64,000 nucleotides of DNA. Source: Escherichia coli. Lineage in GTDB: Bacteria > Pseudomonadota > Gammaproteobacteria > Enterobacterales > Enterobacteriaceae. Below, in pieces: positions 13,438-56,477 of the stretch. The DNA lies in assembly GCF_003019035.1 (NCBI RefSeq), contig NZ_CP027447.1. One strand, 5' to 3'. The stretch's first letter is position 1; each line of letters begins with the position of its first letter. The notes beneath the pieces are model-generated. The model was not told where the DNA came from. It worked only from the letters and a program-made list of their open reading frames with translations, and made no database searches. A program made the translations under genes and the position numbers.

Positions 13438-14421
13438 TTACTTCACGTTGTAATTACGCAGAGCGTTACGCCCCAACACAATCCCCGCGCCCACCATACC
13501 GCCCAGCAGCACTGCCAGAATCAAGGTGATTGCTTTCTTCGGGCTATCGCGACGAATTGGCAGTGTGGGTTTCATAACGTAACGGTAGGCATGAATATCA
13601 AGATCATCAACCTTCAGACTTTCGATATCCAGCAGGTTTTGACGAGTCTGATAATAGTTTGGCGAGAACACAAGCGGACGAGTCGCTTCGTGCTTAATCA
13701 TCGACCCCAGTGCTTCGCTACCTAACAAAAGCAACGTGTCCTGAGTAATATTTTCACCAGTCTGCTGAATCTGCGGCTTTGTTACCTGCGCCTGATTCGC
13801 ATACTGCAACGCTTCCTGAATCTGGCGGATACGCAGCGTTTTTTGCTCCTGAGCCACCACTTCCTGAGTTTTCAGGGAATCCTGCAATGTTTTCATGCCC
13901 AACGCAATATTATCCTTCAGGTCCTTTTCCAGCTCTTCATTCACTCGGTCATCAACTTGTTGAATGTATTCAGCCAGCTTTTTCTGTGCATCCGCCGCCG
14001 TTTTCCCAACATAAGAAACAGCTAACGGTAACGGCTGGTTTTTAACAGCGGGCTCGATGGTCAGTTTTTCGCGTTCTTCCTGATTATCCAGCGTTTCCGC
14101 TAATGCAGAGAAAGCGGAACTGAAGCGACCAATCAACGCCTCCTGTAAATCAGCTACTTTTGGCGCAGCCTGGCCATAAATTACATTCATGGCGTTGTTA
14201 TAGCCGGCAATTTGCCCCACATCAGGTTGAGTGACAATGGCTGTTGATGTCCATTGCTCTTTCGCTACTGCCAGGTATCCAATAGCCAACACGATAGCCA
14301 CAATGACTGTGGCGATAATGGTCATCTTACCGCGCCACAGTTGTACCAGTAAATCAATTAAATCAATCTGTTCCGGGTCATTGTTGTGCCCAGAAATATT
14401 ATTATTTTCAACTTTCATCAT
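13438..14421 (-). CDS. wzzB: O-antigen chain-length determinant (polysaccharide co-polymerase 1)
   Basis: 327 aa, N- and C-terminal TM segments flanking a long coiled periplasmic region; adjacent to ugd as in E. coli. Confidence 0.85.
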   Translation of the reverse strand: MMKVENNNISGHNNDPEQIDLIDLLVQLWRGKMTIIATVIVAIVLAIGYLAVAKEQWTSTAIVTQPDVGQIAGYNNAMNVIYGQAAPKVADLQEALIGRFSSAFSALAETLDNQEEREKLTIEPAVKNQPLPLAVSYVGKTAADAQKKLAEYIQQVDDRVNEELEKDLKDNIALGMKTLQDSLKTQEVVAQEQKTLRIRQIQEALQYANQAQVTKPQIQQTGENITQDTLLLLGSEALGSMIKHEATRPLVFSPNYYQTRQNLLDIESLKVDDLDIHAYRYVMKPTLPIRRDSPKKAITLILAVLLGGMVGAGIVLGRNALRNYNVK

Positions 14422-14562
14422 TACCCTAACAGACGGAAAATTTCAGGTCGCCATAGTTTAGCGATAATCTGTATGAATGCCATAGGATAAACAATAAATA
14501 TAATGAATTGTTACATGAACATAGATACCAACTACCGCCAAAAATCATCTGATTACAGATAG

Positions 14563-17573: not shown

Positions 17574-18998
17574 TCAAGAAATTAAAGATATAATATTCCC
17601 AAGCACATTCGTAACATATTGCTTAGCCTGATTTTCATCACTGCCTTCAGCGTAACAACGGAGTTCAGGGGCATTTCCGGAAGGACGGAGATGTATAATA
17701 TCACCATTAGTTAAAATAAATCTTGCACCATCCGTTTCATCAATAGTGGAACAGGATAATGATTCATACCCTAATTTATTAAAGAAATTATTGGGTGATG
17801 AAATGGCATTTTTTATAATTTTCTGACTTGACTCTGAAGGAAAGTTTTTCACTCTATCTGACCAAGTGAATCGCTGTGGAAGATTATTAACCAGTTGAGA
17901 GATAGTACTATTGCGAGAAGCTATTAAGAGCATTAACGCTGGTAATACTGCATCTCGAGTAGGTAACGCATTTAATTCTTTGCCATTAATTTGTAAATCG
18001 GAGGCAAGCAGAAAACCGCCATTAGCTTCAAAACCAGCGACTGAATCAAATTGTTTAGCAAGTTCTGAAAACGCTGCAATCACATAAGGAGAGCCAATTT
18101 TAGTCCGTTGTATATTTGCAAATTTATGAGATTGTTCAATTGCTGTATTACAACTCACTGGAATAGCCAACGCCTTGATATTAAGTTCAATAGCCGTAAG
18201 TAATCCCAGAATATCGCCTCTTAGCCATTCACCATTTTCATCGGCAACTAAAGGGCGATCACCATCACCATCTGTTGAGAAAATTGCATCGAGATTGTAT
18301 TTTTTAGACCACTCTCTTGCAAGTAGACGATCTTCTTCGCTAACTGCTTCCGTATCAATAGGAACGAACTCATCACTTCTACCGAGGGAGATGACCTCAG
18401 CACCCAATTGATTAAAAAGTGGAGCATATAAATCTCGTCCTGCACTAGAATGTTCATAGATCCCAATTCTCTTCCCCTTTAAAATATCGGAATTAAAAAG
18501 AGAAACATAACGTTCCAGGTAGCAATCCGCACCTTGAGTACTTGTTTCAAGATGAGGTAATACATCTACAGGAGAAAAAACATATTCACTATTTACTATT
18601 GCTAACTCATCCTCTTTTGTGATTTCACCATCTGGACGGTAAAATTTCAAACCATTACGGTCAAAAGGTATGTGACTACCGGTAACCATTATGCAGGGGA
18701 TGTTTTTCTGTATGGAATAATGAGCTAATGCAGGGGTCGGAATTACACCATGATATTCAACAGCGAACCCATGTTGTTTGATAGCGAACGCGCATGCCTG
18801 AGCAATTTCATAACTACTCGGGCGGTTGTCAATGGCTAAAGCAACTTTATTAAAATTGTATTTGTCATCAATAACAGAAAGAAACGCATGACTGAAGGCT
18901 GCACAAACATCATGGGTAAAATCGATGACTAAACCACGAGCACCACTAGTGCCGAAAGCAATATTGCTATCGGTAATGATTTTGTTAGCATTTAACAT
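17574..18998 (-). CDS. alpha-D-phosphohexomutase (ManB-like phosphomannomutase candidate), O-antigen cluster copy
   Basis: 474 aa; phosphoserine-loop motif TGSHIPFDRNG; last gene of the AT-rich cluster; clearly different from the colanic acid CpsG. Confidence 0.65.
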   Translation of the reverse strand: MLNANKIITDSNIAFGTSGARGLVIDFTHDVCAAFSHAFLSVIDDKYNFNKVALAIDNRPSSYEIAQACAFAIKQHGFAVEYHGVIPTPALAHYSIQKNIPCIMVTGSHIPFDRNGLKFYRPDGEITKEDELAIVNSEYVFSPVDVLPHLETSTQGADCYLERYVSLFNSDILKGKRIGIYEHSSAGRDLYAPLFNQLGAEVISLGRSDEFVPIDTEAVSEEDRLLAREWSKKYNLDAIFSTDGDGDRPLVADENGEWLRGDILGLLTAIELNIKALAIPVSCNTAIEQSHKFANIQRTKIGSPYVIAAFSELAKQFDSVAGFEANGGFLLASDLQINGKELNALPTRDAVLPALMLLIASRNSTISQLVNNLPQRFTWSDRVKNFPSESSQKIIKNAISSPNNFFNKLGYESLSCSTIDETDGARFILTNGDIIHLRPSGNAPELRCYAEGSDENQAKQYVTNVLGNIISLIS

Positions 18999-19003
18999 GA
19001 TGA

Positions 19004-19750
19004 TTACTTCTTAATAAATTGAGGAAGTTTGGATAGATTTTTATACGCTAAAGCTATTGGCCAGATAATACCATTCTGTTTCATAGCGCGAATATCTTCC
19101 ATTGATTTATTGATCATGGAAGATACTGAGCGATTGCTAATTCCACCAACACGCATTTTCACTAATACTTTTGGTAAGTACGCTATTGAAATACGCTGTT
19201 TTAAAATATAACGTAATAATGAGTCATAATCAGCAGATATTCGGTAATCTAATGAAAAACAACCAAACTGACTATAACAATCGCGTTTCATATAAAATGA
19301 TGGGTGTGGCGGCATCCAACCTAGTTTCATCTTCAAACGGCTAAATGAGCCACTCTTCCATAATCTAATACGTTTAGTTGTATCATTTTTGGCAACATAC
19401 TCCAAATCACCATAAACAGCATCACACCCTGAACTTTCAAATGTTTTTACTATATCTGCAATAGCATCGTCATAAGCAAGTAAGTCATCAGAGTGCAAAA
19501 ATCCAATTATATCACCAGAAGCTGCTTGAATACCTTTATTCAGTGCATCATAAATGCCATTGTCGGGTTCGCAAATGATTGTTGAAACTCTTGTACATTT
19601 ACTCTTGATTAGCTCTATTGTATTATCTTTCGATGCCCCATCTACAACTATATATTCAATATCTGAATGTGTTTGTTTTTCCAGAGAGAGTAATGTATCA
19701 AGAAGCGTTTTTTCACTATTATAAGTTGCTGTGATAATTGAAATCCGCAT
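19004..19750 (-). CDS. family 2 glycosyltransferase (GT-A fold)
   Basis: 248 aa, N-terminal ISIITATYN...VVDGASKD pattern typical of GT2. Confidence 0.65.
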   Translation of the reverse strand: MRISIITATYNSEKTLLDTLLSLEKQTHSDIEYIVVDGASKDNTIELIKSKCTRVSTIICEPDNGIYDALNKGIQAASGDIIGFLHSDDLLAYDDAIADIVKTFESSGCDAVYGDLEYVAKNDTTKRIRLWKSGSFSRLKMKLGWMPPHPSFYMKRDCYSQFGCFSLDYRISADYDSLLRYILKQRISIAYLPKVLVKMRVGGISNRSVSSMINKSMEDIRAMKQNGIIWPIALAYKNLSKLPQFIKK

Positions 19751-21156
19751 TAGTATCCAACTCCAGAAGAAGAAACTCTTATAACATCATCCTCTTCCAA
19801 GTAGACTCCTGATCTAACCTCAATTATTTCAAGTGGGATCTTGCCAGGATTTTCAATGGCATGTGGAACACCAACAGGTATATATGTTGATTCATTTTCT
19901 GAAACAAGATAAGTTTTCTCCTCAAGATGAACTTTAGCTGTCCCCGAGACAACAATCCAATGTTCAGTACGATGGTAATGGATCTGCTTAGCGGTAATGT
20001 GACCCGGTAATACAATCACATGTTTAACCTGAAAGCGTTGCCCTTCAGCTATAGTGTCATGACTGCCCCAAGGACGAAAAATTTCCCGATGTTGTAAATA
20101 TTCTGTTCGATTATTCTTTTTAAGCTGAGCTACGATGTTTTTAACTTGCTGAACTTTATCTTTATGAGCAACTAATACTGCATCTTTCGTTTCAACGACA
20201 ACCAAATCCTTTACGCCCACGGCCCCAATAAGTCTATGCTGCGAATAAAGATAACTATCTGTAGCATCCTCAACCAAAACATCACCACGAATGGCATTGC
20301 CGCTTTGGTCTTTTGAACTTATTTCCCACAGCGCAGACCATGACCCAACATCACTCCATTGCGCATCCAATGGTACGACCACAGCTTCAGCTGTTTTTTC
20401 CATAACGGCATAGTCGATTGACTCTTCAGGGCAGCAAGAAAAAGAAGAGTTATCCAAGCGGATAAAATCTAAATCTTGAGTCGAGGAAGCTAAGGATTGC
20501 TGACAACTCTCTAGAATATCTGGACGGAATTTTTTTAGTTCATCGATGAATACAGATGCTCTGAACATAAACATTCCACTATTCCAAAGATAACCGCCAT
20601 CTGACAAATACCGCTGAGCTAATTCTAGCTCTGGCTTTTCAACAAAAGCTGCAACTTTATAACCTTGCCCACTAAGTGGATCACCTGACTTAATATAGCC
20701 ATACCCTGTCTCTGGAGCTGTTGGAACGATGCCAAATGTGACCAACTTACCTTGCTGCGCAAAGTCCTTCGCGGCCAAAACTGCTGTAATGAAACTATTC
20801 TCATCCTGAATTTCATGGTCAGCCGCAAGAACCAAAAGTATAGGATCCTCTCCACTTGCCGTTGCCTGAAGCGCTGCAAGGGCTACAGCAGGTGCCGTAT
20901 TGCGCCCAACAGGCTCAAGCAAAATCCCACTATGCTTTAAACCAACTTTACGTAATTGTTCAGCAACAATGAAACGATGTGATTCATTACAAATGATCAA
21001 AGCAGGATTGTGTTCAATCTTTTCTAGCCGTCGCAAAGTCTCTTGCAACATAGTTAAGCGGCTATTTAAAGACAGAAATTGTTTCGGATAAAGTGTACGT
21101 GAAAGAGGCCATAATCTGGTACCAGATCCACCGGCCATGACAACGGGAAGTAGCAT
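19750..21156 (-). CDS. manC: mannose-1-phosphate guanylyltransferase (ManC), O-antigen cluster copy
   Basis: 468 aa, close paralogue of CpsB further downstream ([15 protein letters not shown]... C-terminal cupin region). Confidence 0.85.
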   Translation of the reverse strand: MLLPVVMAGGSGTRLWPLSRTLYPKQFLSLNSRLTMLQETLRRLEKIEHNPALIICNESHRFIVAEQLRKVGLKHSGILLEPVGRNTAPAVALAALQATASGEDPILLVLAADHEIQDENSFITAVLAAKDFAQQGKLVTFGIVPTAPETGYGYIKSGDPLSGQGYKVAAFVEKPELELAQRYLSDGGYLWNSGMFMFRASVFIDELKKFRPDILESCQQSLASSTQDLDFIRLDNSSFSCCPEESIDYAVMEKTAEAVVVPLDAQWSDVGSWSALWEISSKDQSGNAIRGDVLVEDATDSYLYSQHRLIGAVGVKDLVVVETKDAVLVAHKDKVQQVKNIVAQLKKNNRTEYLQHREIFRPWGSHDTIAEGQRFQVKHVIVLPGHITAKQIHYHRTEHWIVVSGTAKVHLEEKTYLVSENESTYIPVGVPHAIENPGKIPLEIIEVRSGVYLEEDDVIRVSSSGVGY

Positions 21157-21161
21157 ATCTA

Positions 21162-21623
21162 TTACCTTGATATAAAATAATTTTTGGTATATTGATGAAC
21201 TGTAGTGCTATTAAGCAACGTTACTACATCAAACCACTTGTAGGAATTATGCTGAATCGTTGGTAGGCGAAGTTGCTGCGGATTAATTTGAATTTCATAT
21301 CCATGCACTACGTAGTGTGTAGAAAAATCTACTTCAGAAAAATTGTCATTGTAAAAGTGTTCATACACACCAAGAAATATGGCCTCACCAAGACTAGTTT
21401 GAACGCCTAACTCTTCAAATGTGATCCTTTTAAAAGCATCCTCGAATGACTCGTCCTTAAAAATTCGCCCTCCAGGCACAAACCAATAATTTTTTGCGGG
21501 GCGATTCAGGCGCTGCCCAAGCAGCGCCTCTCCTTTATCGTTTCTAATTACGAGGTCAATCGAGATTAGAGGAGTATGCTTGACTATTGTTTTAAATAAC
21601 TCATATTCTAATCTCTTTTTCAT
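21162..21623 (-). CDS. gmm: GDP-mannose mannosyl hydrolase (Nudix), O-antigen cluster copy
   Basis: 153 aa, alignable by eye with the colanic acid Gmm/WcaH ([20 protein letters not shown]). Confidence 0.75.
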   Translation of the reverse strand: MKKRLEYELFKTIVKHTPLISIDLVIRNDKGEALLGQRLNRPAKNYWFVPGGRIFKDESFEDAFKRITFEELGVQTSLGEAIFLGVYEHFYNDNFSEVDFSTHYVVHGYEIQINPQQLRLPTIQHNSYKWFDVVTLLNSTTVHQYTKNYFISR

Positions 21624-21625
21624 AA

Positions 21626-22591
21626 CTATCCCCGAAAAGAATCAATATTCTCAAGAAACCATTTATATGTTAATGATAGACCTTCATGTAAATTATAGCG
21701 ATGTTGCCAGCCCAAGTTTTTGAGTCGGGTAACGTCCATAAGTTTTCGCGGGGTGCCATCTGGTTTGGTCGCGTCAAAAACAATTTTTCCTTGATAACCC
21801 ACTACAGAAGCCATTGTTTCAGCCATTTCACGTATAGAACAATCCACCCCCGTACCTACATTAATATGAGATAACATTGGTTGTGTATTTTGTTGATAAA
21901 TTGCGTCCTCTAACTCCATCACATGAACCGAGGCAGCAGCCATATCATCAACATATAAAAACTCACGCATCGGCATTCCCGTGCCCCAGACAATAACTTC
22001 TTGTGCACCACTTTCTTTTGCCTCATGGAATCTACGCATAAGCGCCGGAATAACATGGGAGTTTTCAGGATGGAAGTTATCATTCGAACCATAAAGATTA
22101 GTAGGCATTACACTTCTATAATCGCGACCATATTGACGATTATAAGACTCACATAATTTTATGCCCGCAATCTTAGCAATTGCGTATGGCTCATTAGTTG
22201 GCTCAAGTATGCCCGTCAAAAGTGCAGACTCTTTCATCGGCTGCTCAGCAAATTTTGGATAAATACAGCTAGAGCCTAAAAAAAGTAATTTTTGAATTCC
22301 AACCTTGTGAGCTGAATGTATAATATTACTCTCAATCATGAGATTCTGATAAATGAATTCTGCTGGAAATGTATTATTGGCATAAATACCACCTACTTTT
22401 GCCGCAGCAAGATAAACCTGATCAACCCTCTCTCTCTCAAAAAATGCCTCAACATCCTTCTGCACGGTCAGATCGAGTTCTTTGTGTGTTTTAACCACTA
22501 ACTCGATATCATCACGCAGCGATAATTGTCGGCAAATAGCAGAGCCAACCATGCCCTGGTGCCCAGCAACATATACTCTTTTCTTTATCAT
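21626..22591 (-). CDS. fcl: GDP-L-fucose synthase, O-antigen cluster copy
   Basis: 321 aa; long identical stretches with the colanic acid Fcl ([40 protein letters not shown]). Confidence 0.85.
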
Positions 22592-22594
22592 GTA

Positions 22595-23728
22595 TTAACG
22601 CTCCAGAGAAACCGAAACATCATAACCATGGCTTTTAAGAAGTGCATGTTGTTTCGCTTTTAACAAATCGCTAGCAACCATTTCTGCACACATCTCTTCA
22701 ACTGTAATCTCTGGTTCCCAGCCTAATAGATTTTTTGCTTTTGCAGGGTCACCTAAGAGTGTTTCAACTTCAGCAGGACGGAAATAACGAGGATCAACCC
22801 GAACTATAACGTCTCCAACATTTACACCAATAGCACAATCGGAAATTTTATTAACTACTGTGGCTATCTCATCTACACCCTCACCAGAGAATTCAAGTTC
22901 AAGTCCGACTTCTTTAGCAGCCATACGGACAAATTCACGCACAGATATCTGTTTACCTGTGGCAATGACAAAATCCTCTGGATGATCTTGCTGAAGCATC
23001 ATCCATTGCATGCGAACATAATCTTTAGCGTGTCCCCAGTCACGCAACGAATCCAGATTACCCAAATATAAGCATTGTTCGATCCCCTGAGAAATATTAG
23101 CTATTGCACGAGTAATTTTACGGGTAACAAAAGTTTCTCCACGGCGTGGCGATTCATGGTTAAAAAGAATACCATTACAAGCATATATACCATAAGATTC
23201 ACGGTAGTTAACTGTTATCCAGTAAGCATACATCTTAGCTACAGCATAAGGCGAACGCGGGTAGAATGGAGTTGTTTCACGCTGAGGAATCTCTTGCACT
23301 AAACCAAAAAGTTCTGAAGTAGATGCTTGATAGAAACGTGTTTTTTTCTCCAGCCCACAGATTCGTATTGCTTCTAATAAACGTAATGTCCCTATTGCAT
23401 CTACATCTGCTGTATATTCTGGTGACTCGAATGACACTGCGACATGGGATTGTGCACCAAGGTTATAAATTTCATCCGGTTGAATTTCTTGGATTAAACG
23501 GATCAGATTCGATGTATCTGTTAAATCCCCATAGTGTAAAATAAAATTAGGCTCATCAACGAATCGTGATTGATATATATGATCAATTCTATCAGTGTTA
23601 AATGACGATGCTCGGCGTTTTATACCATGTACTTCATAACCTTTTTCAATAAGAAATTCTGCAAGATATGAACCATCTTGTCCAGTTACGCCTGTGATAA
23701 ATGCAACTTTTTTATTCATTTTAATCAT
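22595..23728 (-). CDS. gmd: GDP-mannose 4,6-dehydratase, O-antigen cluster copy
   Basis: 377 aa, [16 protein letters not shown] motif; paralogue of the colanic acid gmd; true start may be the internal Met (MNKKVAF). Confidence 0.85.
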
Positions 23729-23737
23729 GTTATGTTC

Positions 23738-24769
23738 CTAAATATTCAACTCATTATAAACTTTAATCGTTTCATTAACACATTTTGACCATGAAAATTT
23801 TTGCGCCTGCAGTAAACCTCTTTCGATCATAACATTTCTTTTTAAATTAACTAATTCTAAAGCTTCTTTTAACGTAAACTCATTAATATCATCAATATAA
23901 ATAGGCGCATTCCCCCCTACTTCCGGCAACGAGGATGTGTTTGCACAAATAACTGGACATCCGGCCTGCATAGCTTCTAGGACAGGTATTCCAAACCCCT
24001 CATAACTGGAAGGGTAAACAAGTGCATATGCAGTATTATACTGTATATTTAAATCTTCATTACTCAAAAATGTAAAATGTTCATATCTATTTTTTAAATA
24101 TTTTTCAAGGAGTTCTCTTTCATATTTTTTAAGCGAGCCTCCGCCTACAATTGTAAGCTTTAAGCCATGTAATTTCCCTACAGCTTTGACTGCAAGAACG
24201 AAATTTTTATAACCTTCTCTGGCACCGACAAACAAAACTGAATTATTTACTCTCATATCAGACATGTTAGAAATATGTTTATATGATGGGGATACACCAT
24301 TATAAATCACTCTAATTTTATCTTCGCTAATTGGACAGTACTTAAGTAAATCTCTAGCAGTGTTGTTTGAAATACAAATTACGATATCACTATTCTTGAT
24401 AGCATGATATTTTTGAAGAGAATGAATAAATTTTGACATTCCTCCCCTGTATTTTTCATAGGTGAAATCATGAACAGTTGTAACATTTTTCACATTCAAA
24501 TTAGGACTTTTATGAACTCGATAATAACTTGAGTGTAAAACCCTAGTTTTAATATCACTTACATTTCTATATCTTTCTAAAATTCTTGGCTTACGATATT
24601 GCAACTTTAAGTCGCTTGTATCAAACTCAAATTCTTTATTTTTATACAATAGAATTTCAGCTTGGTAATTTGATTTCACCATTCCTTGGATCAACTCATT
24701 AAAGTATACACTTATTCCACCAAATGATTGGAGATTATAAATAATCCCATCGATAGTTACCATTATCAT
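23738..24769 (-). CDS. GT-B fold glycosyltransferase (GT4-like)
   Basis: 343 aa; C-terminal region with EGFGIPVLEAM motif characteristic of GT4 retaining transferases. Confidence 0.65.
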   Translation of the reverse strand: MIMVTIDGIIYNLQSFGGISVYFNELIQGMVKSNYQAEILLYKNKEFEFDTSDLKLQYRKPRILERYRNVSDIKTRVLHSSYYRVHKSPNLNVKNVTTVHDFTYEKYRGGMSKFIHSLQKYHAIKNSDIVICISNNTARDLLKYCPISEDKIRVIYNGVSPSYKHISNMSDMRVNNSVLFVGAREGYKNFVLAVKAVGKLHGLKLTIVGGGSLKKYERELLEKYLKNRYEHFTFLSNEDLNIQYNTAYALVYPSSYEGFGIPVLEAMQAGCPVICANTSSLPEVGGNAPIYIDDINEFTLKEALELVNLKRNVMIERGLLQAQKFSWSKCVNETIKVYNELNI

Positions 24770-26022
24770 CGCCCTCGCAAGGTAATACGTTCGATTAGAA
24801 CGAACAATATCAAAAAGAAGATCAGTAACAATACATATGCCGGCCCAGCAAAATAAGTTCCAAATGAAGGTGAAATGAGAATTATAGAAAGCAAAAAAAA
24901 GGATGCAGAGTTCGTAATTACTTTTGCATTAAACATTTTAAGCTTAGCAAAAATATAGCCATAAAAGATATTCATAGGTGAAAGAAAAGTTAAAATGATC
25001 AGTCCAACATATCCATAATCAACAAAATTATCCATCCCTTTTGAAAAAGCAGGTGTATGCCCCGACTCTGCAGCTCCTGGATAATAGATTTCATTTACAT
25101 GCAGAAATCCATATACAAAAGGTTTATCAGGAAACAAACCTCTCGGTATATAAGACCAAAATTGGCTGAAATAGACTGTGCCATTGAAAAACTTAACCAC
25201 ACCTTTATCAATATCTTGTAGCAAATAAATACTGTTTTGATACTGGTCAAAATAAGACAATACTACATCGACATTCATATTTCCAATAGCTAAAAATAAA
25301 TTATAGAGAATGGCACACGCTGCCAGGGGTGTAACTAAAATCAGGCCAAATTTTAGAAATCTAGATTTATTAAGACTTAACACTGCAAGATAAAAAATCG
25401 CAAATGAAAGAATAAAGGTTTTCGATCCAAGAAAAAAAACCAAGGTACAATAGAATATCGCGCATAAAAATAATTTTATTTCCGAGCGTAAAGCCAACGC
25501 CCTGGAAAAATAAGATACCGAAAGCATACTTAAAGAAAAGGCATATAAAACACCATTACCTTCTCGATAGTTTTGATAACCATCCCTGGGATTCGTCAAC
25601 CATCCAGAAATACCTATTTCTGACTTTGAAGAAAGAAGAACAAATAATGTAATAAACAGAACCAATGTAATATTTGATATTCTTTTTAATTTTGTATGCG
25701 AAATTAAGCAAGTTAAATAGATCTCTCTATTTTTGAATGCTATATTAAAAATAAAATAAAAGAAAATTATAGATAAAACACCCACAAAAGAGTATATGTT
25801 ATATATAAATAAAGCCTCATTATAATATTGATTTAAAGCAAAGTCTGAACCGTAGAAAAGAGGAGCCAAAATATTTTCCAATAGAAAAACCGGAAATAAA
25901 ATAATGGCGTAAATGGTAAAGGGATTGATAATTGTAAGTCTTAGCGTTTTCGTCGCTAATAAAGAAAAAGAATAATATAGTACTATAGCTAGTGTAACAT
26001 TTAAACAATATATTATTACCAC
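24766..26022 (-). CDS. wzy: O-antigen polymerase candidate
   Basis: 418 aa, very hydrophobic multi-pass membrane protein with low-complexity AT-rich codon usage, located between glycosyltransferase genes; start codon uncertain. Confidence 0.55.
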   Translation of the reverse strand: MVIIYCLNVTLAIVLYYSFSLLATKTLRLTIINPFTIYAIILFPVFLLENILAPLFYGSDFALNQYYNEALFIYNIYSFVGVLSIIFFYFIFNIAFKNREIYLTCLISHTKLKRISNITLVLFITLFVLLSSKSEIGISGWLTNPRDGYQNYREGNGVLYAFSLSMLSVSYFSRALALRSEIKLFLCAIFYCTLVFFLGSKTFILSFAIFYLAVLSLNKSRFLKFGLILVTPLAACAILYNLFLAIGNMNVDVVLSYFDQYQNSIYLLQDIDKGVVKFFNGTVYFSQFWSYIPRGLFPDKPFVYGFLHVNEIYYPGAAESGHTPAFSKGMDNFVDYGYVGLIILTFLSPMNIFYGYIFAKLKMFNAKVITNSASFFLLSIILISPSFGTYFAGPAYVLLLIFFLILFVLIERITLRGR

Positions 26023-26032
26023 ATCCTCCCCC

Positions 26033-26842
26033 CTATCTTAAACCGAATAATTTGCGCTTAATTGATTTTGTTTTTTGATATAATGCTTGAGGAACAATCA
26101 CTTTAAATAAAACTTGCAATGAATTATAGACAGCAAATTTTATTTTATATGATAAGGGCATATGAATATTATTTTTAGCTAGAATATAAGCAATTTCTTT
26201 CTTGACTAATTTTTTATTAGATTCATTTGAACTTACACCCGAAGCATCCATTATGGATACAGGAAAATTCACATAATGCATCGTAGATGGATCTATTGTT
26301 CTTATCATAAAATCACTATCAGCAGCAATTTTTAGTGTTGTATCAAAGCGATTAGCATTATCTTTAAAAAAGCTAGAATGCTGGAAAGTACCCTGATGAG
26401 GAGGAAGTGAAGGCCGACCACATTCCCACTTTTTCTTTATTTTTCCGTAAACTCCAACTATATTATCTTCATCACTAAAATATACATCACCATATATAGT
26501 TGTTGCACTCATATTTTCGTGAATGGCATTTGCTATTTTTGAAAGAGTATTATTTTCATAGAATGTATCGCCAGCTCCCATAAAAATAACCCAATCGCCA
26601 TTTATGTGAGGAAGAGCTTTATTCCAAGCGTCGTATATTCCTTGATCAGATTCGCATAAAAAATAATCTATAATATCAATATATCTATAAATATATTCTA
26701 GTGTTGATTTGTTAGAGTTGCCGTCTATAACAATCCATTGAATATTACAATAATTTTGATTTTTAATAGATTCCGCAGTCTTGCAGAAATCTTCCTCACA
26801 ATTATACGTCGATGTTATTATAGTAATCTGTAAGCCATTCAT
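26033..26842 (-). CDS. family 2 glycosyltransferase
   Basis: 269 aa, N-terminal ITIITSTYN...VIDGNS pattern typical of GT2. Confidence 0.65.
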   Translation of the reverse strand: MNGLQITIITSTYNCEEDFCKTAESIKNQNYCNIQWIVIDGNSNKSTLEYIYRYIDIIDYFLCESDQGIYDAWNKALPHINGDWVIFMGAGDTFYENNTLSKIANAIHENMSATTIYGDVYFSDEDNIVGVYGKIKKKWECGRPSLPPHQGTFQHSSFFKDNANRFDTTLKIAADSDFMIRTIDPSTMHYVNFPVSIMDASGVSSNESNKKLVKKEIAYILAKNNIHMPLSYKIKFAVYNSLQVLFKVIVPQALYQKTKSIKRKLFGLR

Positions 26843-26848
26843 CTTAAC

Positions 26849-27559
26849 TCACTTATTTTTCATGGCAATATATTTTAATCTTAATTCTTTAATTAAGGTC
26901 TTTACTTTACTATCAGTGGAATACTCAATATTAAACGTGCCAGAGACTCCTCTTATTTTGGGAATAGTTGTTCCAATAACTCCTTTTAATTTATTATTTT
27001 TAATTTGCTCAAAAAAAATGTGTTCTAAATAAACACCATCAAGGTCACGCACAGATTTATAAGAATTAGCAAAAAAGTCCCAATATATTTTTTTATTTAC
27101 AACATAAAACCTTGTATCAATCATATTTTCATTCAGAAAAGGAACTGGTATAAAAAAAGCTTTACCATTGAATGCTTTTATACATTGCTTATAATTATCG
27201 ACGTATAGTTTTGATGTTATTTTTGCGAAACTTTCAGCATTAGACAAATAGCGACTATTCATTAATGCATACTCAATTATTTCACCCTCTCCGTAACCTT
27301 TACCATAAGATTTAACACTTTCTGTATCATTTTTGAAATGTATTATCTCGATCGAATCTTTATTAAGTATTTGTTTATCATTATGAATATCTTTCGTCAA
27401 ATCATAATCACTACCATCACATATTACTATAGAATCAGCATTCTTAGACAATTCTCTTATCGCTTTCAATGTATGTAATAATCTTGAATTTTCATCAGAA
27501 AGATTTGTAAGAGGAGCATTAGGTGAGATACAAGAAGTCACTAATACTGGGATTTTCAT
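26849..27559 (-). CDS. hypothetical protein in O-antigen cluster (possible unclassified glycosyltransferase)
   Basis: 236 aa from the ATG at 27559 (MKIPVLVTSCISP...), start overlapping the wzx stop as ATGA; the longer 282-aa reading would overlap wzx by about 140 nt; no family recognisable by eye. Confidence 0.45.
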   Translation of the reverse strand: MKIPVLVTSCISPNAPLTNLSDENSRLLHTLKAIRELSKNADSIVICDGSDYDLTKDIHNDKQILNKDSIEIIHFKNDTESVKSYGKGYGEGEIIEYALMNSRYLSNAESFAKITSKLYVDNYKQCIKAFNGKAFFIPVPFLNENMIDTRFYVVNKKIYWDFFANSYKSVRDLDGVYLEHIFFEQIKNNKLKGVIGTTIPKIRGVSGTFNIEYSTDSKVKTLIKELRLKYIAMKNK

Positions 27560-28800
27560 TTTTTCTTTTCCAGCCTCAACGAAATTAACATTAGTATAAA
27601 ATAATCGGCGGTGACTCTTGCGCTCCAGGCATAAGCCACACCTGCTACAGAAAAATACATAATTGAAAAATATAAAACTAGCAGATATGGAATACATTCA
27701 ACAAGATGAATGAGACCCGTAATTTTTGCATAACCTTTCGATTGGATTTGAGCAAATGGAACTTGAGCAAGAGAGTTGAATACAAAACCTACTAATAATA
27801 TTTGAAATATATAAGGACTCTCAGCGCTATATTGTTTTCCAAGCCATAAAGTTATAATATCACTAGCCTTCAAAGAAAACATAATAGATATAACTATACT
27901 AGTTACACTTATTAATAACGTAGCCTCTTTTATTATTTTTTTTCGCTCATTTTTTGTATTATTCTTGCATAGAGCAGGAAAAATTGTCCTTGCTATAGTT
28001 GTCGGTAATATAAGTAACTTTGAAATTGCATCCGCAGGAGCAATATATAACGAAGCTTTAGCAGGGCCAACTGCATTTGATAAGATAAATCGGTCAATAT
28101 TTGTAAGCAATGGGTTAATTATACTACTAATACTCGCCCATCCTCCAAAACTTAATAGTGCTTTTGTTTTACTTAGACTAAAATCCATTGTAAGCCTATT
28201 ATTTCTAAAAACAAAGAACACGCTTAAAAGAGCACCAGTTATTCTCGCAATCACCAATCCCAAAGTAGCATTAAGCAAACCAACATTTCCATGAATGAAA
28301 ATAACTGGTAGTAGCGCAGTTAACACACCTGTAATTGTTTTTTGTACATTTAATAATTTGAATTTTTCATATCCTTCTAATATCCCCCAACAAACCATAT
28401 TAAGAAGATAAAATGGCAGACAGTAGGATAAAACACTTATAGCATATGCAACACTTTCAGTTTGTTCCGGACCACTAATTAAGGATGCAATCTTATGGTT
28501 GCAGTAATAAAAAATTACGGATACAACAACACCAATAGATAATGTTAATAAAAATGATGTTGTAATTATTTGACTGATTGCCTTTTTGTCGTTTTTATTT
28601 AATGATATTTCACGTACAACGGCTCGCGAAAGTCCGAGATCAAATATACTTGCGTATCCAACTATTGTAAAAAACATTAAAAAAAAGCCAAAGTTAGTTA
28701 TTCCTAACTCCCTTGCCAAATACCCCATCGCAGGTATTGACAATAAAGTTGGGATTGCATACCCAGCCAAATTTATTAAACTATTTATTTTAATACTCAT
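27556..28800 (-). CDS. wzx: O-antigen flippase
   Basis: 414 aa, multi-pass membrane protein of polysaccharide-transporter type immediately downstream of rfbC. Confidence 0.7.
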   Translation of the reverse strand: MSIKINSLINLAGYAIPTLLSIPAMGYLARELGITNFGFFLMFFTIVGYASIFDLGLSRAVVREISLNKNDKKAISQIITTSFLLTLSIGVVVSVIFYYCNHKIASLISGPEQTESVAYAISVLSYCLPFYLLNMVCWGILEGYEKFKLLNVQKTITGVLTALLPVIFIHGNVGLLNATLGLVIARITGALLSVFFVFRNNRLTMDFSLSKTKALLSFGGWASISSIINPLLTNIDRFILSNAVGPAKASLYIAPADAISKLLILPTTIARTIFPALCKNNTKNERKKIIKEATLLISVTSIVISIMFSLKASDIITLWLGKQYSAESPYIFQILLVGFVFNSLAQVPFAQIQSKGYAKITGLIHLVECIPYLLVLYFSIMYFSVAGVAYAWSARVTADYFILMLISLRLEKKK

Positions 28801-28816
28801 TTTTAATTATCTTTTG

Positions 28817-29359
28817 TCAATAATTATTTTGTATAAATGGAGTACCCAAACAATCTTTTTGTGATATAAGAGGTTCTTTGTATAATTGCCAATCTATGTT
28901 AAGTAAAGCATCATTCCAAATAATACATTTCTCATGTTCTTTTGAGTAAAAATTATTGGTCTTATACAATATTTCTGAACCTTCTTCTTTTACATAAAAA
29001 CCATGCGCAAACCCTTCCGGGATCCACAACTGGCGCTTATTCTCAGCAGACAAATTCACTCCAACCCATTTCCCAAATGTAGGTGACGATTTACGAATAT
29101 CAACCGCAACATCAAAAACTTCACCAACAACACAGCGCACCAGTTTTCCTTGAGCATAAGGTTCTAACTGATAATGCAACCCTCGTAAAACACCTTTTCT
29201 GGACTTAGAATGATTGTCCTGAACAAACTCAACCTTACGCCCTACAACCTCTTCGAAAACTTTCTGATTAAAGCTTTCCATAAAGAAGCCACGTTCATCC
29301 CCAAAAACTTTTGGTTCAAAAATCAGCACATCAGGAATTTCAGTTTTAATTACGTTCAT
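28817..29359 (-). CDS. rfbC: dTDP-4-dehydrorhamnose 3,5-epimerase
   Basis: 180 aa, cupin-fold RmlC-like sequence (FGDERGFFMESF..., GLHYQ). Confidence 0.85.
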   Translation of the reverse strand: MNVIKTEIPDVLIFEPKVFGDERGFFMESFNQKVFEEVVGRKVEFVQDNHSKSRKGVLRGLHYQLEPYAQGKLVRCVVGEVFDVAVDIRKSSPTFGKWVGVNLSAENKRQLWIPEGFAHGFYVKEEGSEILYKTNNFYSKEHEKCIIWNDALLNIDWQLYKEPLISQKDCLGTPFIQNNY

Positions 29360-29363
29360 CTTA

Positions 29364-30242
29364 TTAATAACCTTTAATCATTTTGAGCAGATACTGACCA
29401 TAAGCATTTTTCTTCAACGGTTCGGCTAATACTTTTACCTGCTCAGCATCAATAAACCCTTTACGATAAGCAATTTCTTCCGGACAGGAAACCTTTAGTC
29501 CCTGGCGCTCTTCAATGGTGGCAATGAAGTTGCTTGCTTCAATAAGACTTTGATGCGTCCCTGTATCCAGCCATGCATAGCCACGCCCCATCATAGCGAC
29601 AGACAAACGTCCTTGTTCCATATAAATACGGTTAATATCGGTAATTTCCAGTTCACCTCGGGCAGAAGGCTTAAGGTTTTTCGCCATTTCCACAACGTCA
29701 TTGTCATAGAAATAAAGCCCAGTAACCGCATAGTTACTTTTTGGTTCCAGCGGTTTTTCTTCCAGGCTAATTGCAGTACCGTTATTATCAAACTCCACGA
29801 CACCATAGCGTTCAGGATCATTAACGTGATAAGCAAATACCGTTGCACCGATTTCTTTGTTAACAGCAGCTTCCATTAATTTTGGCAAGTCGTGTCCATA
29901 GAAGATATTATCACCAAGCACAAGTGCACAATCATCACCTCCAATAAAGTCTTCACCAATGATAAACGCTTGCGCCAGGCCATCCGGACTCGGTTGTACT
30001 TTATACTGTAGATTAAGCCCCCATTGGCTCCCGTCCCCCAACAAATGTTGGAAACGCGGTGTATCCTGTGGAGTACTGATAATAAGAATATCGCGAATAC
30101 CCGCTAACATAAGCGTTGAAAGCGGATAATAAATCATAGGTTTATCATAAATCGGCAACAGTTGTTTACTCACGGCCATAGTCACAGGATAAAGACGAGT
30201 GCCGGAACCACCAGCTAAAATAATACCTTTACGCGTTTTCAT
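29364..30242 (-). CDS. rfbA: glucose-1-phosphate thymidylyltransferase
   Basis: 292 aa, [21 protein letters not shown]... Confidence 0.9.
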
Positions 30243-30300
30243 TTCACCATTCCTTTTAATTCATCCCGCTCTGGCATCATAAGCGAGATGCAAAAATTTG

Positions 30301-31200
30301 TTAAATTGCCGTAGTCGTAAATAATTCGTTGAGCATTCGTTTCACACCCACCTGCCAGTCAGGCAAGACAAGCGCAAAGTTCTGCTGAAACTTTTCTGTA
30401 TTGAGGCGAGAGTTATGGGGTCGACGGGCTGGTGTGGGATAGGCCGTTGTTGGCACGGCGTTAAGTTTGTTAAGAGCAAGGTTAATCCCTGCTTTGCGCG
30501 CTTCTTCAAATACCAGAGCGGCATAATCGTGCCAGGTTGTTGTACCGCCAGCAACCAGATGGTACAAACCAGCAACTTCTGGTTTGTCTACTGCTACGCG
30601 AATGGCATGAGCGGTGCAATCAGCCAGCAATTCGGCACCTGTTGGTGCGCCAAACTGATCGTTTATCACAGCCAGTTCTTCGCGCTCTTTTGCCAGACGC
30701 AACATTGTTTTGGCGAAGTTATTTCCTTTACCTGCATATACCCAGCTGGTACGGAAAATAATATGCTTCGCGCAATGTTTCTGTAACGCTTTTTCTCCGG
30801 CTAGTTTAGTTTCACCATAAACATTCAAAGGTGCTGTAGCATCCGTCTCCTGCCACGGTATTTCACCGGTTCCCGGAAATACGTAGTCAGTAGAGTAGTG
30901 AATAACCCAAGCGCCGACTTCATTAGCTGCTTTTGCAATCGCTTCGACACTTGTCGCGTTAAGTAATTGTGCAAATTCCGGTTCTGATTCCGCTTTGTCT
31001 ACTGCAGTGTGAGCAGCCGCATTAACAATAACATCAGGGCGAATTTTTTTGACAGTTTCAGCTACACCTTCGGGATTACTAAAATCACCACAATAATCAG
31101 TGGAGTGAACATCAAGAGCAATCAGATTACCCAGCGGTGCCAGAGCACGCTGCAGTTCCCAACCTACCTGCCCTGTTTTGCCGAATAGGAGGATATTCAT
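30301..31200 (-). CDS. rfbD: dTDP-4-dehydrorhamnose reductase
   Basis: 299 aa, [20 protein letters not shown]... Confidence 0.9.
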   Translation of the reverse strand: MNILLFGKTGQVGWELQRALAPLGNLIALDVHSTDYCGDFSNPEGVAETVKKIRPDVIVNAAAHTAVDKAESEPEFAQLLNATSVEAIAKAANEVGAWVIHYSTDYVFPGTGEIPWQETDATAPLNVYGETKLAGEKALQKHCAKHIIFRTSWVYAGKGNNFAKTMLRLAKEREELAVINDQFGAPTGAELLADCTAHAIRVAVDKPEVAGLYHLVAGGTTTWHDYAALVFEEARKAGINLALNKLNAVPTTAYPTPARRPHNSRLNTEKFQQNFALVLPDWQVGVKRMLNELFTTTAI

Positions 31201-32285
31201 TACTGGCGGCCCTCATAGTTCTGTTCAATCCACGACTGATAAGCACCGCTTTTCACATTCTCAACCCAATTTGTATTAGCCAGATACCATTCCACCGTTT
31301 TACGAATACCGCTCTCAAACGTTTCTTGCGGTTTCCAGCCCAATTCGCGGCTAATTTTATCGGCATCAATTGCATAACGGCGATCATGCCCTGGGCGATC
31401 AGCAACATAGGTAATTTGCTCACGATAAGATTTCTCTTTCGGGACTATCTCATCCAACAAATCACAAATAGTGAACACTACGTCGATGTTTTTCTTTTCG
31501 TTGTGTCCACCAATGTTATAAGTTTCGCCTGCTTTACCTTCGGTTACGACGGTATATAACGCTCGAGCATGATCCTCTACATACAACCAGTCGCGGATCT
31601 GATCTCCTTTGCCATAAATAGGTAATGCCTTACCTTCCAGTGCATTAAGAATAACCAGTGGAATAAGCTTTTCCGGGAAATGATAAGGACCATAGTTGTT
31701 CGAGCAATTAGTCACAATGGTCGGTAAACCATAAGTACGTTTCCATGCGCGAACCAAATGATCGCTGGAAGCTTTAGAAGCAGAATATGGACTACTTGGC
31801 GCGTATGCTGTCGTTTCCGTAAATAGCGGCAACGTTTCATTGCTATTTACTTCATCCGGATGGGGTAAGTCACCATACACCTCATCAGTAGAAATATGAT
31901 GAAAACGGAAGTTTTTTTTCTTTTCATCATCCAGACCAGACCAATAATTGCGCGCCGCTTCTAAAAGAACATAAGTACCCACAATATTGGTTTCAATAAA
32001 TGCCGCAGGGCCAGTTATTGAGCGGTCAACGTGGCTCTCTGCTGCCAGGTGCATCACCGCGTCTGGCTGGTGCTGTGCGAAAATACGAGCCATCGCTTCG
32101 GCATCGCAGATATCTGCATGCTCAAATGAATAACGTTCAGAATCAGAAATTTCAGCGAGTGATTCCAGGTTTCCGGCGTATGTTAATTTATCGACATTAA
32201 CAACACTATCTTGCGTATTATTTATTATGTGACGAACAACAGCAGAACCAATAAATCCTGCGCCACCAGTAACAAGTATCTTCAC
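31200..32285 (-). CDS. rfbB: dTDP-glucose 4,6-dehydratase
   Basis: 361 aa from a GTG start ([21 protein letters not shown]); the ORF-track 384-aa reading is an upstream over-extension. Confidence 0.9.
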
Positions 32286-32359
32286 TTTTTTATTCCATAT
32301 AGCCAGAGAGCATGCTGTGAAATAGACTGCTCCAGATTTGATTAATAGATGCATTAATG

Positions 32360-32398
32360 CACGCTACCGCCCCTGGCTTAACAGCTACCAGAGCACTG
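32360..32398 (-). promoter_or_regulatory. JUMPstart element with ops site (GGCGGTAG) in the rfb 5' leader
   Basis: minus-strand sequence CAGTGCTCTGGTAGCTGTTAAGCCAGGGGCGGTAGCGTG; ops octamer at 32364-32371. Confidence 0.75.
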
Positions 32399-41999: not shown

Positions 42000-42099
42000 G
42001 TCGTTACCCTTTTTCAGGCAATAGTTGGCCCTGACCGAAACGGCCAATTTTGTTTTTTCGTTATTTACCGGAGAATTAATCCGGTTGATTATTCAACGG

Positions 42100-43536: not shown

Positions 43537-43538
43537 AA

Positions 43539-45238: not shown

Positions 45239-45240
45239 CA

Positions 45241-46206: not shown

Positions 46207-46208
46207 GC

Positions 46209-56438: not shown

Positions 56439-56477
56439 CACGCTACCGCCCCTGGCTTTTTAGCTACCAATACACTG
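56439..56477 (-). promoter_or_regulatory. JUMPstart-like element with ops site (GGCGGTAG) in the colanic acid operon leader
   Basis: CACGCTACCGCCCCTGGCTT on plus, i.e. AAGCCAGGGGCGGTAGCGTG on minus, about 185 bp upstream of the wza start; ops at 56443-56450. Confidence 0.7.

What the first reader, a model, noticed from the sequence alone, without database searches (positions are those of the whole stretch)
17574..32398. AT-rich O-antigen gene cluster between gnd and galF encoding both dTDP-L-rhamnose and GDP-L-fucose pathways
Between the conserved anchors gnd and galF lies a roughly 15-kb minus-strand cluster that is visibly much more AT-rich than the flanking his and colanic acid DNA. It has rfbBDAC (dTDP-L-Rha), its own gmd-fcl-gmm-manC plus a ManB-like mutase (GDP-L-Fuc), wzx, a wzy candidate, and four putative glycosyltransferases (two GT2, one GT4-like, one unassigned). 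This is the signature of a Wzx/Wzy-dependent heteropolymeric O-antigen, probably containing L-rhamnose and L-fucose; mannose itself is possible. Four transferases plus WecA initiation would fit a tetra- to pentasaccharide repeat. I cannot name the serogroup from sequence alone; gene content and order differ from the K-12 (O16) cluster.
Basis: partly seen in the sequence, partly recalled or inferred. Interest (0 to 1): 0.75.

Follow-up and report, generated by a model that had tools for sequence, protein, structure and literature searches.

The report
Known E. coli O36 O-antigen cluster
This AT-rich 15-gene block between gnd and galF is the already described Escherichia coli serogroup O36 O-antigen gene cluster, intact in this strain, so it is a correct reading of an ordinary, known locus.

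Summary
Window 17574-32398 carries 15 co-oriented minus-strand genes between gnd and galF, at 37% GC against 52% for the rest of the window. The gene assignments also hold: rfbBDAC, gmd-fcl-gmm-manC, a divergent phosphomannomutase, wzx, wzy and four transferase candidates. The serogroup can be named. The window's Wzx and Wzy are residue-for-residue identical to NCBI proteins called "O36 family O-antigen flippase/polymerase". The whole block matches eight complete E. coli genomes at 96.3-99.9%.
- The "unassigned" transferase (26849-27559, 236 aa) has no Pfam or NCBIfam match, but its confident model has a GT-A glycosyltransferase-like fold.
- wzy here is the intact 418-codon allele with a conserved GTG start. 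RefSeq flags wzy as frameshifted in all eight O36 genomes, including ones whose ORF is identical to the window's.
- The same 15-gene order occurs in a diverged Escherichia variant and in a Buttiauxella-type contig.
- The JUMPstart/ops element lies at 32360-32398.
Interest is low.

The parts
32360..32398 (-). 39-nt JUMPstart element containing the ops site GGCGGTAGCGTG (32360-32371). It lies upstream of rfbB and is the RfaH-dependent antitermination signal for the long operon.
   Evidence: Pattern search and direct reading of cagtgctctggtagctgttaagccaggggcggtagcgtg. The function is from established knowledge of RfaH/ops.
31200..32285 (-). rfbB (rmlB), dTDP-glucose 4,6-dehydratase, 361 aa, GTG start
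   Evidence: NCBIfam NF007490, 792 bits against a cut-off of 649, aligned from residue 24 of the maximal ORF. PGAP coordinates in the identical locus.
30301..31200 (-). rfbD (rmlD), dTDP-4-dehydrorhamnose reductase
   Evidence: NF007440, 659 bits against a cut-off of 308
29364..30242 (-). rfbA (rmlA), glucose-1-phosphate thymidylyltransferase
   Evidence: NF012024, 672 bits against a cut-off of 588
28817..29359 (-). rfbC (rmlC), dTDP-4-dehydrorhamnose 3,5-epimerase
   Evidence: TIGR01221, 276 bits against a cut-off of 156
27556..28800 (-). wzx, O36 O-unit flippase (MOP superfamily), 414 aa
   Evidence: The exact sequence is in NCBI as 'O36 family O-antigen flippase' on 197 contigs. Weak MOP flippase hit. 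Pfam Polysacc_synt on its orthologues.
26849..27559 (-). 236-aa protein with no family assignment and a predicted GT-A (glycosyltransferase-like) fold; candidate fourth glycosyltransferase
26033..26842 (-). GT2-family glycosyltransferase, 269 aa
   Evidence: Sub-threshold GT2-type NCBIfam hits, e.g. WcaE 7e-17. PGAP calls it 'glycosyltransferase family 2 protein'. Pfam Glycos_transf_2 on its orthologues.
24766..26022 (-). wzy, O36 O-antigen polymerase, 418 aa, GTG start, intact allele
   Evidence: The exact sequence is in NCBI as 'O36 family O-antigen polymerase' on 187 contigs. Single stop-free frame. Full-length colinear homologues at 88% and 61% identity. GTG start conserved in three lineages. 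About 10 hydrophobic segments with a hydrophilic loop at roughly 252-338, and 16 synonymous against 11 non-synonymous codon differences from L002. Weak full-length TIGR04370 hit.
23738..24763 (-). GT4-family glycosyltransferase, 341 aa
   Evidence: GT4-type NCBIfam hits below the cut-offs. PGAP calls it 'glycosyltransferase family 4 protein'. Pfam Glycos_transf_1 and Glyco_transf_4 on its orthologues.
22595..23719 (-). [quoted passage not shown]
   Evidence: TIGR01472, 581 bits against a cut-off of 415
21626..22591 (-). fcl, GDP-L-fucose synthase
   Evidence: NF047922, 547 bits against a cut-off of 500
21162..21623 (-). gmm, GDP-mannose mannosyl hydrolase (Nudix)
   Evidence: NF011963, 202 bits against a cut-off of 146
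19750..21156 (-). manC, mannose-1-phosphate guanylyltransferase / mannose-6-phosphate isomerase
   Evidence: TIGR01479, 744 bits against a cut-off of 373
19004..19750 (-). GT2-family glycosyltransferase between manC and manB. This is the position of wfeY, which is assigned to the alpha-L-Fuc-(1->3)-D-GlcNAc linkage.
   Evidence: GT2-type hits. PMC10606467 states that O36, O41, O156, O159 and O168 share this linkage and a transferase gene (wfeY) between manC and manB. The module is shared at about 88% nt with O41 and O168 genomes.
17574..18998 (-). manB-like phosphomannomutase, 474 aa, a divergent alpha-D-phosphohexomutase
   Evidence: PGAP calls it 'phosphomannomutase'. Only sub-threshold NCBIfam mutase hits. 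Pfam PGM_PMM_I, II and IV on the orthologue in L008. 22% identity to CpsG of the colanic-acid cluster. The motifs TGSHIP, DGDGDR, GFEANGG and RPSGNAPELR are visible in the translation.
13438..14421 (-). wzzB, O-antigen chain-length determinant. It lies outside the cluster proper but belongs to the same pathway.
   Evidence: NF012015, 585 bits against a cut-off of 267

Best explanation
Window 17574-32398 is the Escherichia coli serogroup O36 O-antigen gene cluster. It is one RfaH/JUMPstart-controlled operon read on the minus strand from galF towards gnd.

Inferred mechanism, taken from the standard Wzx/Wzy pathway:
1. RfbBDAC make dTDP-L-rhamnose.
2. ManB-like, ManC, Gmd and Fcl make GDP-L-fucose, with Gmm trimming the GDP-mannose pool.
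3. WecA, encoded elsewhere, puts GlcNAc-1-P on undecaprenyl phosphate.
4. The transferase encoded between manC and manB (WfeY) adds alpha-L-Fuc to O-3 of GlcNAc.
5. The GT4, the second GT2 and probably the 236-aa GT-A-like protein complete a branched unit of at least five residues.
6. Wzx flips the unit, Wzy polymerises it, WzzB sets the chain length and WaaL ligates it to lipid A-core.

Shown here: gene identities, the identity with O36, the intactness of all 15 ORFs, the GT-A-like fold of the unassigned protein, and the presence of the ops element. Inferred: which transferase makes which linkage (apart from the published WfeY assignment), and that the strain actually expresses O36.
For: Identity with O36:
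- The whole 14.8-kb block covers 100% of the query at 96.3-99.9% identity in eight complete E. coli genomes, whose wzx and wzy PGAP names 'O36 family'.
- The window's exact Wzx and Wzy sequences are NCBI 'O36 family O-antigen flippase/polymerase' entries, one from a record named E. coli O36.
- Every gene is 100% identical in nucleotides to strain GPEC60-12-649, except rfbB at 99.2%.

Gene functions:
- The pathway enzymes score above the curated NCBIfam cut-offs.
- JUMPstart/ops lies at 32360-32398.
- The fourth transferase candidate has a GT-A-like fold.

wzy:
- It is intact.
- It is colinear with full-length homologues.
- Its GTG start is conserved.

Literature:
- An O36 structure and gene-cluster paper exists (Perepelov et al. 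2014, cited in PMC7685785).
- O36 has a two-residue side branch (PMC7685785).
- O36 contains alpha-L-Fuc-(1->3)-D-GlcNAc, made by the transferase between manC and manB (PMC10606467).

Conservation:
- The same 15-gene order, under sequence divergence, occurs in two other lineages.
Against: There is nothing substantial against the identification. Four caveats remain.
- RefSeq annotates wzy as a frameshifted pseudogene in all eight complete O36 genomes. Four of them (H2, H3, H7, H8) have the same uninterrupted 1257-nt frame as the window, and two of those (H2, H3) are identical to it in nucleotides, so for them the flag looks like an annotation artefact. I could not see the reference protein that PGAP used.
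- The published O36 repeat-unit structure could not be read here, so the match between transferase count and residue count is only checked against secondary statements.
- wecA, waaL and manA lie outside the window.
- Expression was not tested.
Confidence: 0.97

Rival explanations
1. The cluster has the O36 genotype but is non-functional in this strain. wzy would be a pseudogene, giving semi-rough LPS with a single O unit.
For: RefSeq/PGAP marks wzy 'frameshifted' in all eight complete O36 genomes. A truly split allele exists in three of them and in other assemblies: T5->T4 and T8->T7, giving 181-aa and 232-aa products. wzy has no ATG start.
Against: The window carries the T5/T8 allele, with one uninterrupted 418-codon frame. 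That exact protein is annotated as an intact O36 polymerase in GenBank on 187 contigs. The frame and the GTG start are conserved in an 88%-identical Escherichia variant and a 61%-identical Buttiauxella-type homologue. Substitutions against strain 06-00048 are mostly synonymous once the number of sites is taken into account, 16 synonymous against 11 non-synonymous.
Confidence: 0.04
2. The cluster is a new serogroup or a new hybrid that only shares modules with O36.
For: O-antigen clusters are mosaics. The rml and GDP-fucose modules alone match many other genomes at about 88% (H9-H30). The rml genes of one O36 strain are only 88% identical to the window's.
Against: The serotype-specific central genes (wzx, the 236-aa gene, GT2, wzy, GT4) are 97.8-100% identical to those of all the O36 genomes examined. 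Wzx and Wzy are exact matches to named O36 proteins.
Confidence: 0.01
3. The 236-aa protein (26849-27559) is not a glycosyltransferase. It would be a nucleotidyltransferase or another modifying enzyme, so the cluster would encode only three glycosyltransferases.
Confidence: 0.2

Closest known systems
E. coli O36 O-antigen gene cluster (Perepelov et al., Carbohydr Res 2014;390:46-49, as cited in PMC7685785; also present in RefSeq genomes such as SCU-301, GPEC60-12-649 and 06-00048)
   Same: Same locus, same 15 genes in the same order, and Wzx and Wzy identical in sequence. Nucleotide identity over the whole block is 96.3-99.9%.
   Different: Nothing of substance differs. The window carries the intact wzy allele, whereas three RefSeq O36 genomes carry a split allele and one has ISKpn26 in gmd. 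The rml genes vary by recombination between O36 strains.
E. coli O41, O168, O156 and O159 clusters and unnamed O-genotypes (H9-H30)
   Same: They share the gmd-fcl-gmm-manC-wfeY-manB module at about 88% nt and the alpha-L-Fuc-(1->3)-D-GlcNAc linkage (PMC10606467). Some also share rfbBDAC.
   Different: Their wzx, wzy and central transferases are unrelated (no nucleotide match), so the O units differ.
O36-like clusters in a diverged Escherichia lineage (L008-L010) and in a Buttiauxella-type contig (L006, L007; the proteins are named Buttiauxella noackiae in NCBI)
   Same: Identical 15-gene order between galF and gnd, the same GTG-start wzy, and the same unassigned 236-239-aa gene after wzx.
   Different: The serotype-specific proteins (wzx, 236-aa protein, GT2, wzy, GT4) are 84-91% identical in L008 and 51-61% identical in L006. 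In L006 the mutase is replaced by the classical 456-aa type.
E. coli K-12 O16 rfb cluster
   Same: Same locus, rfbBDAC at the 5' end, and the Wzx/Wzy pathway (established knowledge).
   Different: K-12 has no GDP-fucose genes in its rfb cluster, and its transferases, wzx and wzy are different. This rests on my own knowledge and was not tested here.

Membership tests
E. coli serogroup O36 O-antigen gene cluster | wzx matches the O36 marker at near identity | tested here: met
   The exact 414-aa sequence is in NCBI as 'O36 family O-antigen flippase', including an entry from a record named E. coli O36.
E. coli serogroup O36 O-antigen gene cluster | wzy matches the O36 marker at near identity | tested here: met
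   The exact 418-aa sequence is in NCBI as 'O36 family O-antigen polymerase' on 187 contigs.
E. coli serogroup O36 O-antigen gene cluster | Same gene content and order between galF and gnd | tested here: met
   100% coverage at 96.3-99.9% identity in eight genomes. Gene-by-gene comparison.
E. coli serogroup O36 O-antigen gene cluster | The strain expresses the O36 antigen (serology or chemical structure) | not testable with these tools
   This needs antiserum agglutination or LPS analysis.
Wzx/Wzy-dependent O-antigen pathway | A flippase and a polymerase gene are present, and no wzm/wzt ABC transporter genes | tested here: met
   wzx at 27556-28800 and wzy at 24766-26022. None of the 15 genes is an ABC transporter.
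Wzx/Wzy-dependent O-antigen pathway | A chain-length regulator, Wzz | tested here: met
   wzzB at 13438-14421, NF012015 585 bits
Wzx/Wzy-dependent O-antigen pathway | An initiating transferase, WecA, and a ligase, WaaL | not tested
   These genes lie at other chromosomal loci, outside the 64-kb window.
dTDP-L-rhamnose pathway (RmlABCD) | All four enzymes are present and intact | tested here: met
   All four score above the NCBIfam equivalog or subfamily cut-offs and have full-length ORFs.
GDP-L-fucose pathway (ManB, ManC, Gmd, Fcl) | All four enzymes are present and intact | tested here: met
   ManC, Gmd and Fcl score above the cut-offs. The mutase is divergent, with only sub-threshold hits, but it is full length, has the phosphohexomutase motifs and is named phosphomannomutase by PGAP. 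manA is elsewhere in the genome.
GT-A fold glycosyltransferases (for the 236-aa protein) | Rossmann-like GT-A fold | tested here: met
GT-A fold glycosyltransferases (for the 236-aa protein) | A DxD metal- and nucleotide-binding motif after the fourth strand | tested here: inconclusive
   There is no conserved DxD after strand 110-115. The invariant acidic residues are D48 with the nearby D53 and E91/E93. No residue-level superposition was available.
GT-A fold glycosyltransferases (for the 236-aa protein) | Sequence membership of Pfam Glycos_transf_2 or a CAZy family | tested here: not met
   Pfam gives Glycos_transf_2 at E = 0.17 only. NCBIfam gives no hit. A PDB profile search gives no hit.
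GT-A fold glycosyltransferases (for the 236-aa protein) | Sugar-transfer activity | not testable with these tools
   This needs genetics or an enzyme assay.

The most novel reading that the evidence does not exclude
The 236-aa protein after wzx (26849-27559) may belong to a widespread family of small GT-A-like enzymes that Pfam and NCBIfam do not capture. The word-indexed search found 243 relatives. The family lacks the canonical DxD motif and would make one specific linkage of the O36 unit. Its conservation, together with the whole 15-gene cluster, in a diverged Escherichia lineage and in a Buttiauxella-type contig would then document the same O-antigen cluster being shared across genera.
Probability: 0.5. 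Interest if true: 0.2.

Novelty: already known. Interest (0 to 1): 0.07.

Why it matters
It matters little beyond annotation. It types the strain as O36, a rare serogroup found in 8 of 5,426 complete E. coli genomes here. The literature reports O36 among Shiga-toxin-producing strains, mostly carrying stx2g (PMC6760944). Two practical points may help annotators. First, RefSeq flags O36 wzy as a pseudogene even where the reading frame is intact. Second, a truly split wzy allele circulates in part of the O36 population, and those strains might be semi-rough.

Tried and rejected
- Pfam on Wzy returned nothing even at E <= 10, which is usual for Wzy proteins. NCBIfam gave only a weak full-length TIGR04370 hit.
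- Pfam, NCBIfam and a PDB profile search on the 236-aa protein gave nothing usable. Only structure prediction with fold search was informative.
- The promoter and terminator consensus scan over 17.3-33 kb found no more sites than shuffled sequence (62 against 56 +/- 7.6, and 15 against 10.5 +/- 3.7). I did not use it.
- I tried to read the primary O36 structure paper (PubMed 24699003). It is not held. The review's supplements are not held, and a text search for the sugar names together with O36 found nothing. The exact repeat-unit structure is therefore not quoted.
- I considered that the wzy pseudogene flags meant a frameshift in the window and rejected this after aligning all eight loci.
- I considered an upstream ATG start for wzy. 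The only nearby ATG is in another frame and is followed at once by stop codons.
Full report
**Observation**

The ORF list shows 15 closely packed minus-strand ORFs from 17574 to 32354. They lie between gnd (15974-17380) and galF (32658-33551). The his operon, an IS200 copy, wzzB and ugd lie on one side, and the colanic-acid (wca) cluster lies on the other.

The block is AT-rich. GC is 0.371 for 17574-32398 against 0.52 for the his and wca parts of the window. The 1-kb profile falls to 0.28-0.33 between about 23.5 and 29 kb.

Split by module, GC is 0.43 for the rml genes, 0.31 for the central wzx, transferase and wzy block, and 0.39 for the GDP-fucose genes. The 2019 review describes this same pattern for E. 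coli O-antigen clusters in general: processing and transferase genes have lower GC than sugar-pathway genes (PMC7685785).

**Gene content**

These enzymes score above the curated NCBIfam cut-offs:

| Enzyme | Score (bits) | Cut-off (bits) |
|---|---|---|
| RfbB | 792 | 649 |
| RfbD | 659 | 308 |
| RfbA | 672 | 588 |
| RfbC | 276 | 156 |
| Gmd | 581 | 415 |
| Fcl | 547 | 500 |
| Gmm | 202 | 146 |
| ManC | 744 | 373 |

- **The gene next to gnd (17574-18998).** It encodes a 474-aa phosphohexomutase that reaches no equivalog cut-off. PGAP names it phosphomannomutase. Its orthologue carries Pfam PGM_PMM domains I, II and IV. The translation shows the catalytic-serine, Mg-loop, sugar-loop and phosphate-loop motifs. 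It is only 22% identical to CpsG of the colanic-acid cluster.
- **The second GDP-fucose set.** The cluster's Gmd, Fcl, Gmm and ManC are 79, 73, 49 and 58% identical to the colanic-acid copies at 42.1-47.3 kb.
- **The transferase candidates.** Two genes give GT2-type hits (19004-19750 and 26033-26842) and one gives GT4-type hits (23738-24763).
- **Corrected boundaries.** rfbB starts at the GTG at 32285 (361 aa). The "unassigned" gene starts at 27559 (236 aa), overlapping the wzx stop by 4 nt; the longer 282-aa ORF is an artefact of ORF calling.

**Regulatory signal**

The galF-rfbB spacer holds the 39-nt JUMPstart sequence with the ops element GGCGGTAGCGTG at 32360-32398. From established knowledge of RfaH, this element lets transcription read through a long operon of this kind.

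**Identity**

- A megablast of the block against 5,426 complete E. coli genomes finds eight with 100% coverage at 96.3-99.9% identity. In all eight, PGAP names the markers "O36 family O-antigen flippase" and "O36 family O-antigen polymerase".
- An exact-sequence look-up finds the window's Wzx (414 aa) and Wzy (418 aa) in NCBI under those names, on 197 and 187 contigs.
- Gene by gene, the window is 100% identical in nucleotides to strain GPEC60-12-649, except rfbB at 99.2%.
- The O36 structure and gene cluster were published by Perepelov et al. in 2014 (reference in PMC7685785).

The cluster is therefore already known.

**What the literature adds**

- PMC7685785 lists O36 among the few O units with a two-residue side branch. 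[quoted passage not shown]
- PMC10606467 states that O36, O41, O156, O159 and O168 share the alpha-L-Fuc-(1->3)-D-GlcNAc linkage. They also share a transferase gene, wfeY, between manC and manB. That is the position of the window's 19004-19750 gene.
- The gmd-to-manB module is shared at about 88% nucleotide identity with O41 and O168 genomes.
- I could not read the primary structure paper, so I do not quote the repeat unit.

**The unassigned protein (26849-27559)**

It has no Pfam, NCBIfam or PDB sequence match. It does have many relatives of 235-260 aa: the word-indexed search found 243, almost all unnamed.

A canonical DxD after the fourth strand is not conserved. The invariant residues are C47, D48, S50, the stretch G86-K87-G88 / G90-E91-G92-E93 (GKGYGEGE in the consensus, where Y89 is only nearly invariant), D148 and E179.

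It is not proven. I put about 0.2 on a non-transferase role.

**wzy**

The window has a single stop-free 418-codon frame that starts with GTG. The only nearby ATG is out of frame and runs straight into stop codons.

The frame is colinear over its whole length with an 88%-identical Escherichia protein and a 61%-identical protein named Buttiauxella noackiae. The GTG start sits at the same position in all three lineages.

The protein has about ten hydrophobic segments and a hydrophilic loop at roughly residues 252-338. Against strain 06-00048 it shows 16 synonymous and 11 non-synonymous codon differences, which fits purifying selection.

RefSeq nevertheless marks wzy "frameshifted" in all eight complete O36 genomes. 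Aligning them sorts the eight into three groups:
- **Four genomes (H2, H3, H7, H8).** They have the same uninterrupted 1257-nt frame as the window, and H2 and H3 are identical to it in nucleotides. For these the flag is not borne out by the sequence.
- **Three genomes (H4, H5, H6, from Spain, Germany and South Africa).** They share a truly split allele, with one T lost from a T5 run and one from a T8 run. It gives 181-aa and 232-aa products that also appear in other assemblies.
- **One genome (H1).** It has other indels.

A possible cause of the blanket flag is a reference protein derived from the split allele. I could not check this. For the window, the evidence favours a functional polymerase.

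**Relatives and evolution**

The complete gene order also occurs between galF and gnd in two other lineages. The order is rfbBDAC, wzx, the 236-aa gene, GT2, wzy, GT4, gmd, fcl, gmm, manC, GT2, manB.
- **A diverged Escherichia variant (L008-L010).** Its serotype-specific proteins (wzx, 236-aa protein, GT2, wzy, GT4) are 84-91% identical to the window's.
- **A Buttiauxella-type contig (L006, L007).** The same proteins are 51-61% identical, and the mutase is replaced by the classical 456-aa type.

Within O36 the rml genes are recombinant. Strain 06-00048 is 98-99% identical over the central and GDP-fucose genes, 92% in rfbC and 88% in rfbB, rfbD and rfbA. Other, unnamed O-genotypes keep both flanking modules at about 88% identity but carry an unrelated central block. 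This is the usual modular behaviour of O-antigen loci.

**Mechanism**

Steps marked "inferred" come from the standard pathway and were not tested here.
1. RfbBDAC make dTDP-L-Rha.
2. ManB-like, ManC, Gmd and Fcl make GDP-L-Fuc.
3. WecA starts the unit on undecaprenyl phosphate (inferred; the gene is outside the window).
4. WfeY adds alpha-L-Fuc to O-3 of GlcNAc (published assignment).
5. The GT4, the second GT2 and the GT-A-like protein finish a branched unit of at least five residues (inferred).
6. Wzx flips the unit, Wzy polymerises it, WzzB sets the chain length and WaaL ligates it to the core (inferred).

**Verdict**

The locus is the known O36 cluster, so novelty is "already known" and interest is low (0.07). 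The small leftovers are the unclassified GT-A-like family, the wzy annotation problem with the split allele, and the cross-genus copy of the cluster.

Noticed in passing
window 12782-13291 (-): An IS200/IS605-family transposase ORF (NF033573, 145 bits) sits between hisIE and wzzB. The same IS200C copy is annotated at this position in strain SCU-301.
   Followed up: partly
related loci L001, L002, L004, L005, L011-L014 (wzy): RefSeq flags O36 wzy as a 'frameshifted' pseudogene in all eight complete O36 genomes. Four of them have the same uninterrupted 1257-nt ORF as the window (two are nucleotide-identical to it), and the identical protein is annotated as intact in GenBank. This is probably an annotation artefact; the cause was not established.
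   Followed up: partly
L005, L012, L013 (wzy; equivalent to window about 25439 and 25510): A split wzy allele is shared by three unrelated complete genomes and by other assemblies. One T is lost from a T5 run and one from a T8 run, giving 181-aa and 232-aa products. Such strains may make only one O unit per core.
   Followed up: partly
L011 5383-6577 (strain E06): An IS5-like ISKpn26 insertion interrupts gmd in one O36 genome. The window has no such insertion.
   Followed up: no
L006/L007 and L008-L010: The whole 15-gene O36-type cluster, in the same order and at the galF-gnd locus, occurs in a Buttiauxella-type contig and in a diverged Escherichia variant. Identity of the serotype-specific proteins (wzx, 236-aa protein, GT2, wzy, GT4) is 51-61% in the former and 84-91% in the latter. 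In the Buttiauxella-type contig the mutase is the classical 456-aa type.
   Followed up: partly
window 28817-32285 compared with L002 and L005: The rml genes are recombinant within O36. rfbB, rfbD and rfbA are 88% identical to strain 06-00048 while the rest of the cluster is 98-99% identical. The transition falls in rfbC, at 92%.
   Followed up: partly
window 14531-14539 (-), 56442-56450 (-), 57029-57037 (-): There are three further matches to the ops core GGCGGTAGY: four in the window against 0.73 expected by chance. One lies in the ugd-wzzB spacer, one lies upstream of wza at the head of the colanic-acid operon where a JUMPstart is expected, and one lies inside the ORF at 56853-58502.
   Followed up: no
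window 40629-47330 (-): The colanic-acid cluster carries a second full GDP-fucose gene set. Its proteins are 49-79% identical to the O36 copies, except the mutase (cpsG), which is only 22% identical to the O36 mutase.
   Followed up: yes
window 27560-27697 (-): The maximal ORF of the 236-aa gene extends 46 codons upstream into wzx. One older GenBank annotation uses this 282-aa form (P0173). The homologues all start at the MKIP... methionine.
   Followed up: yes
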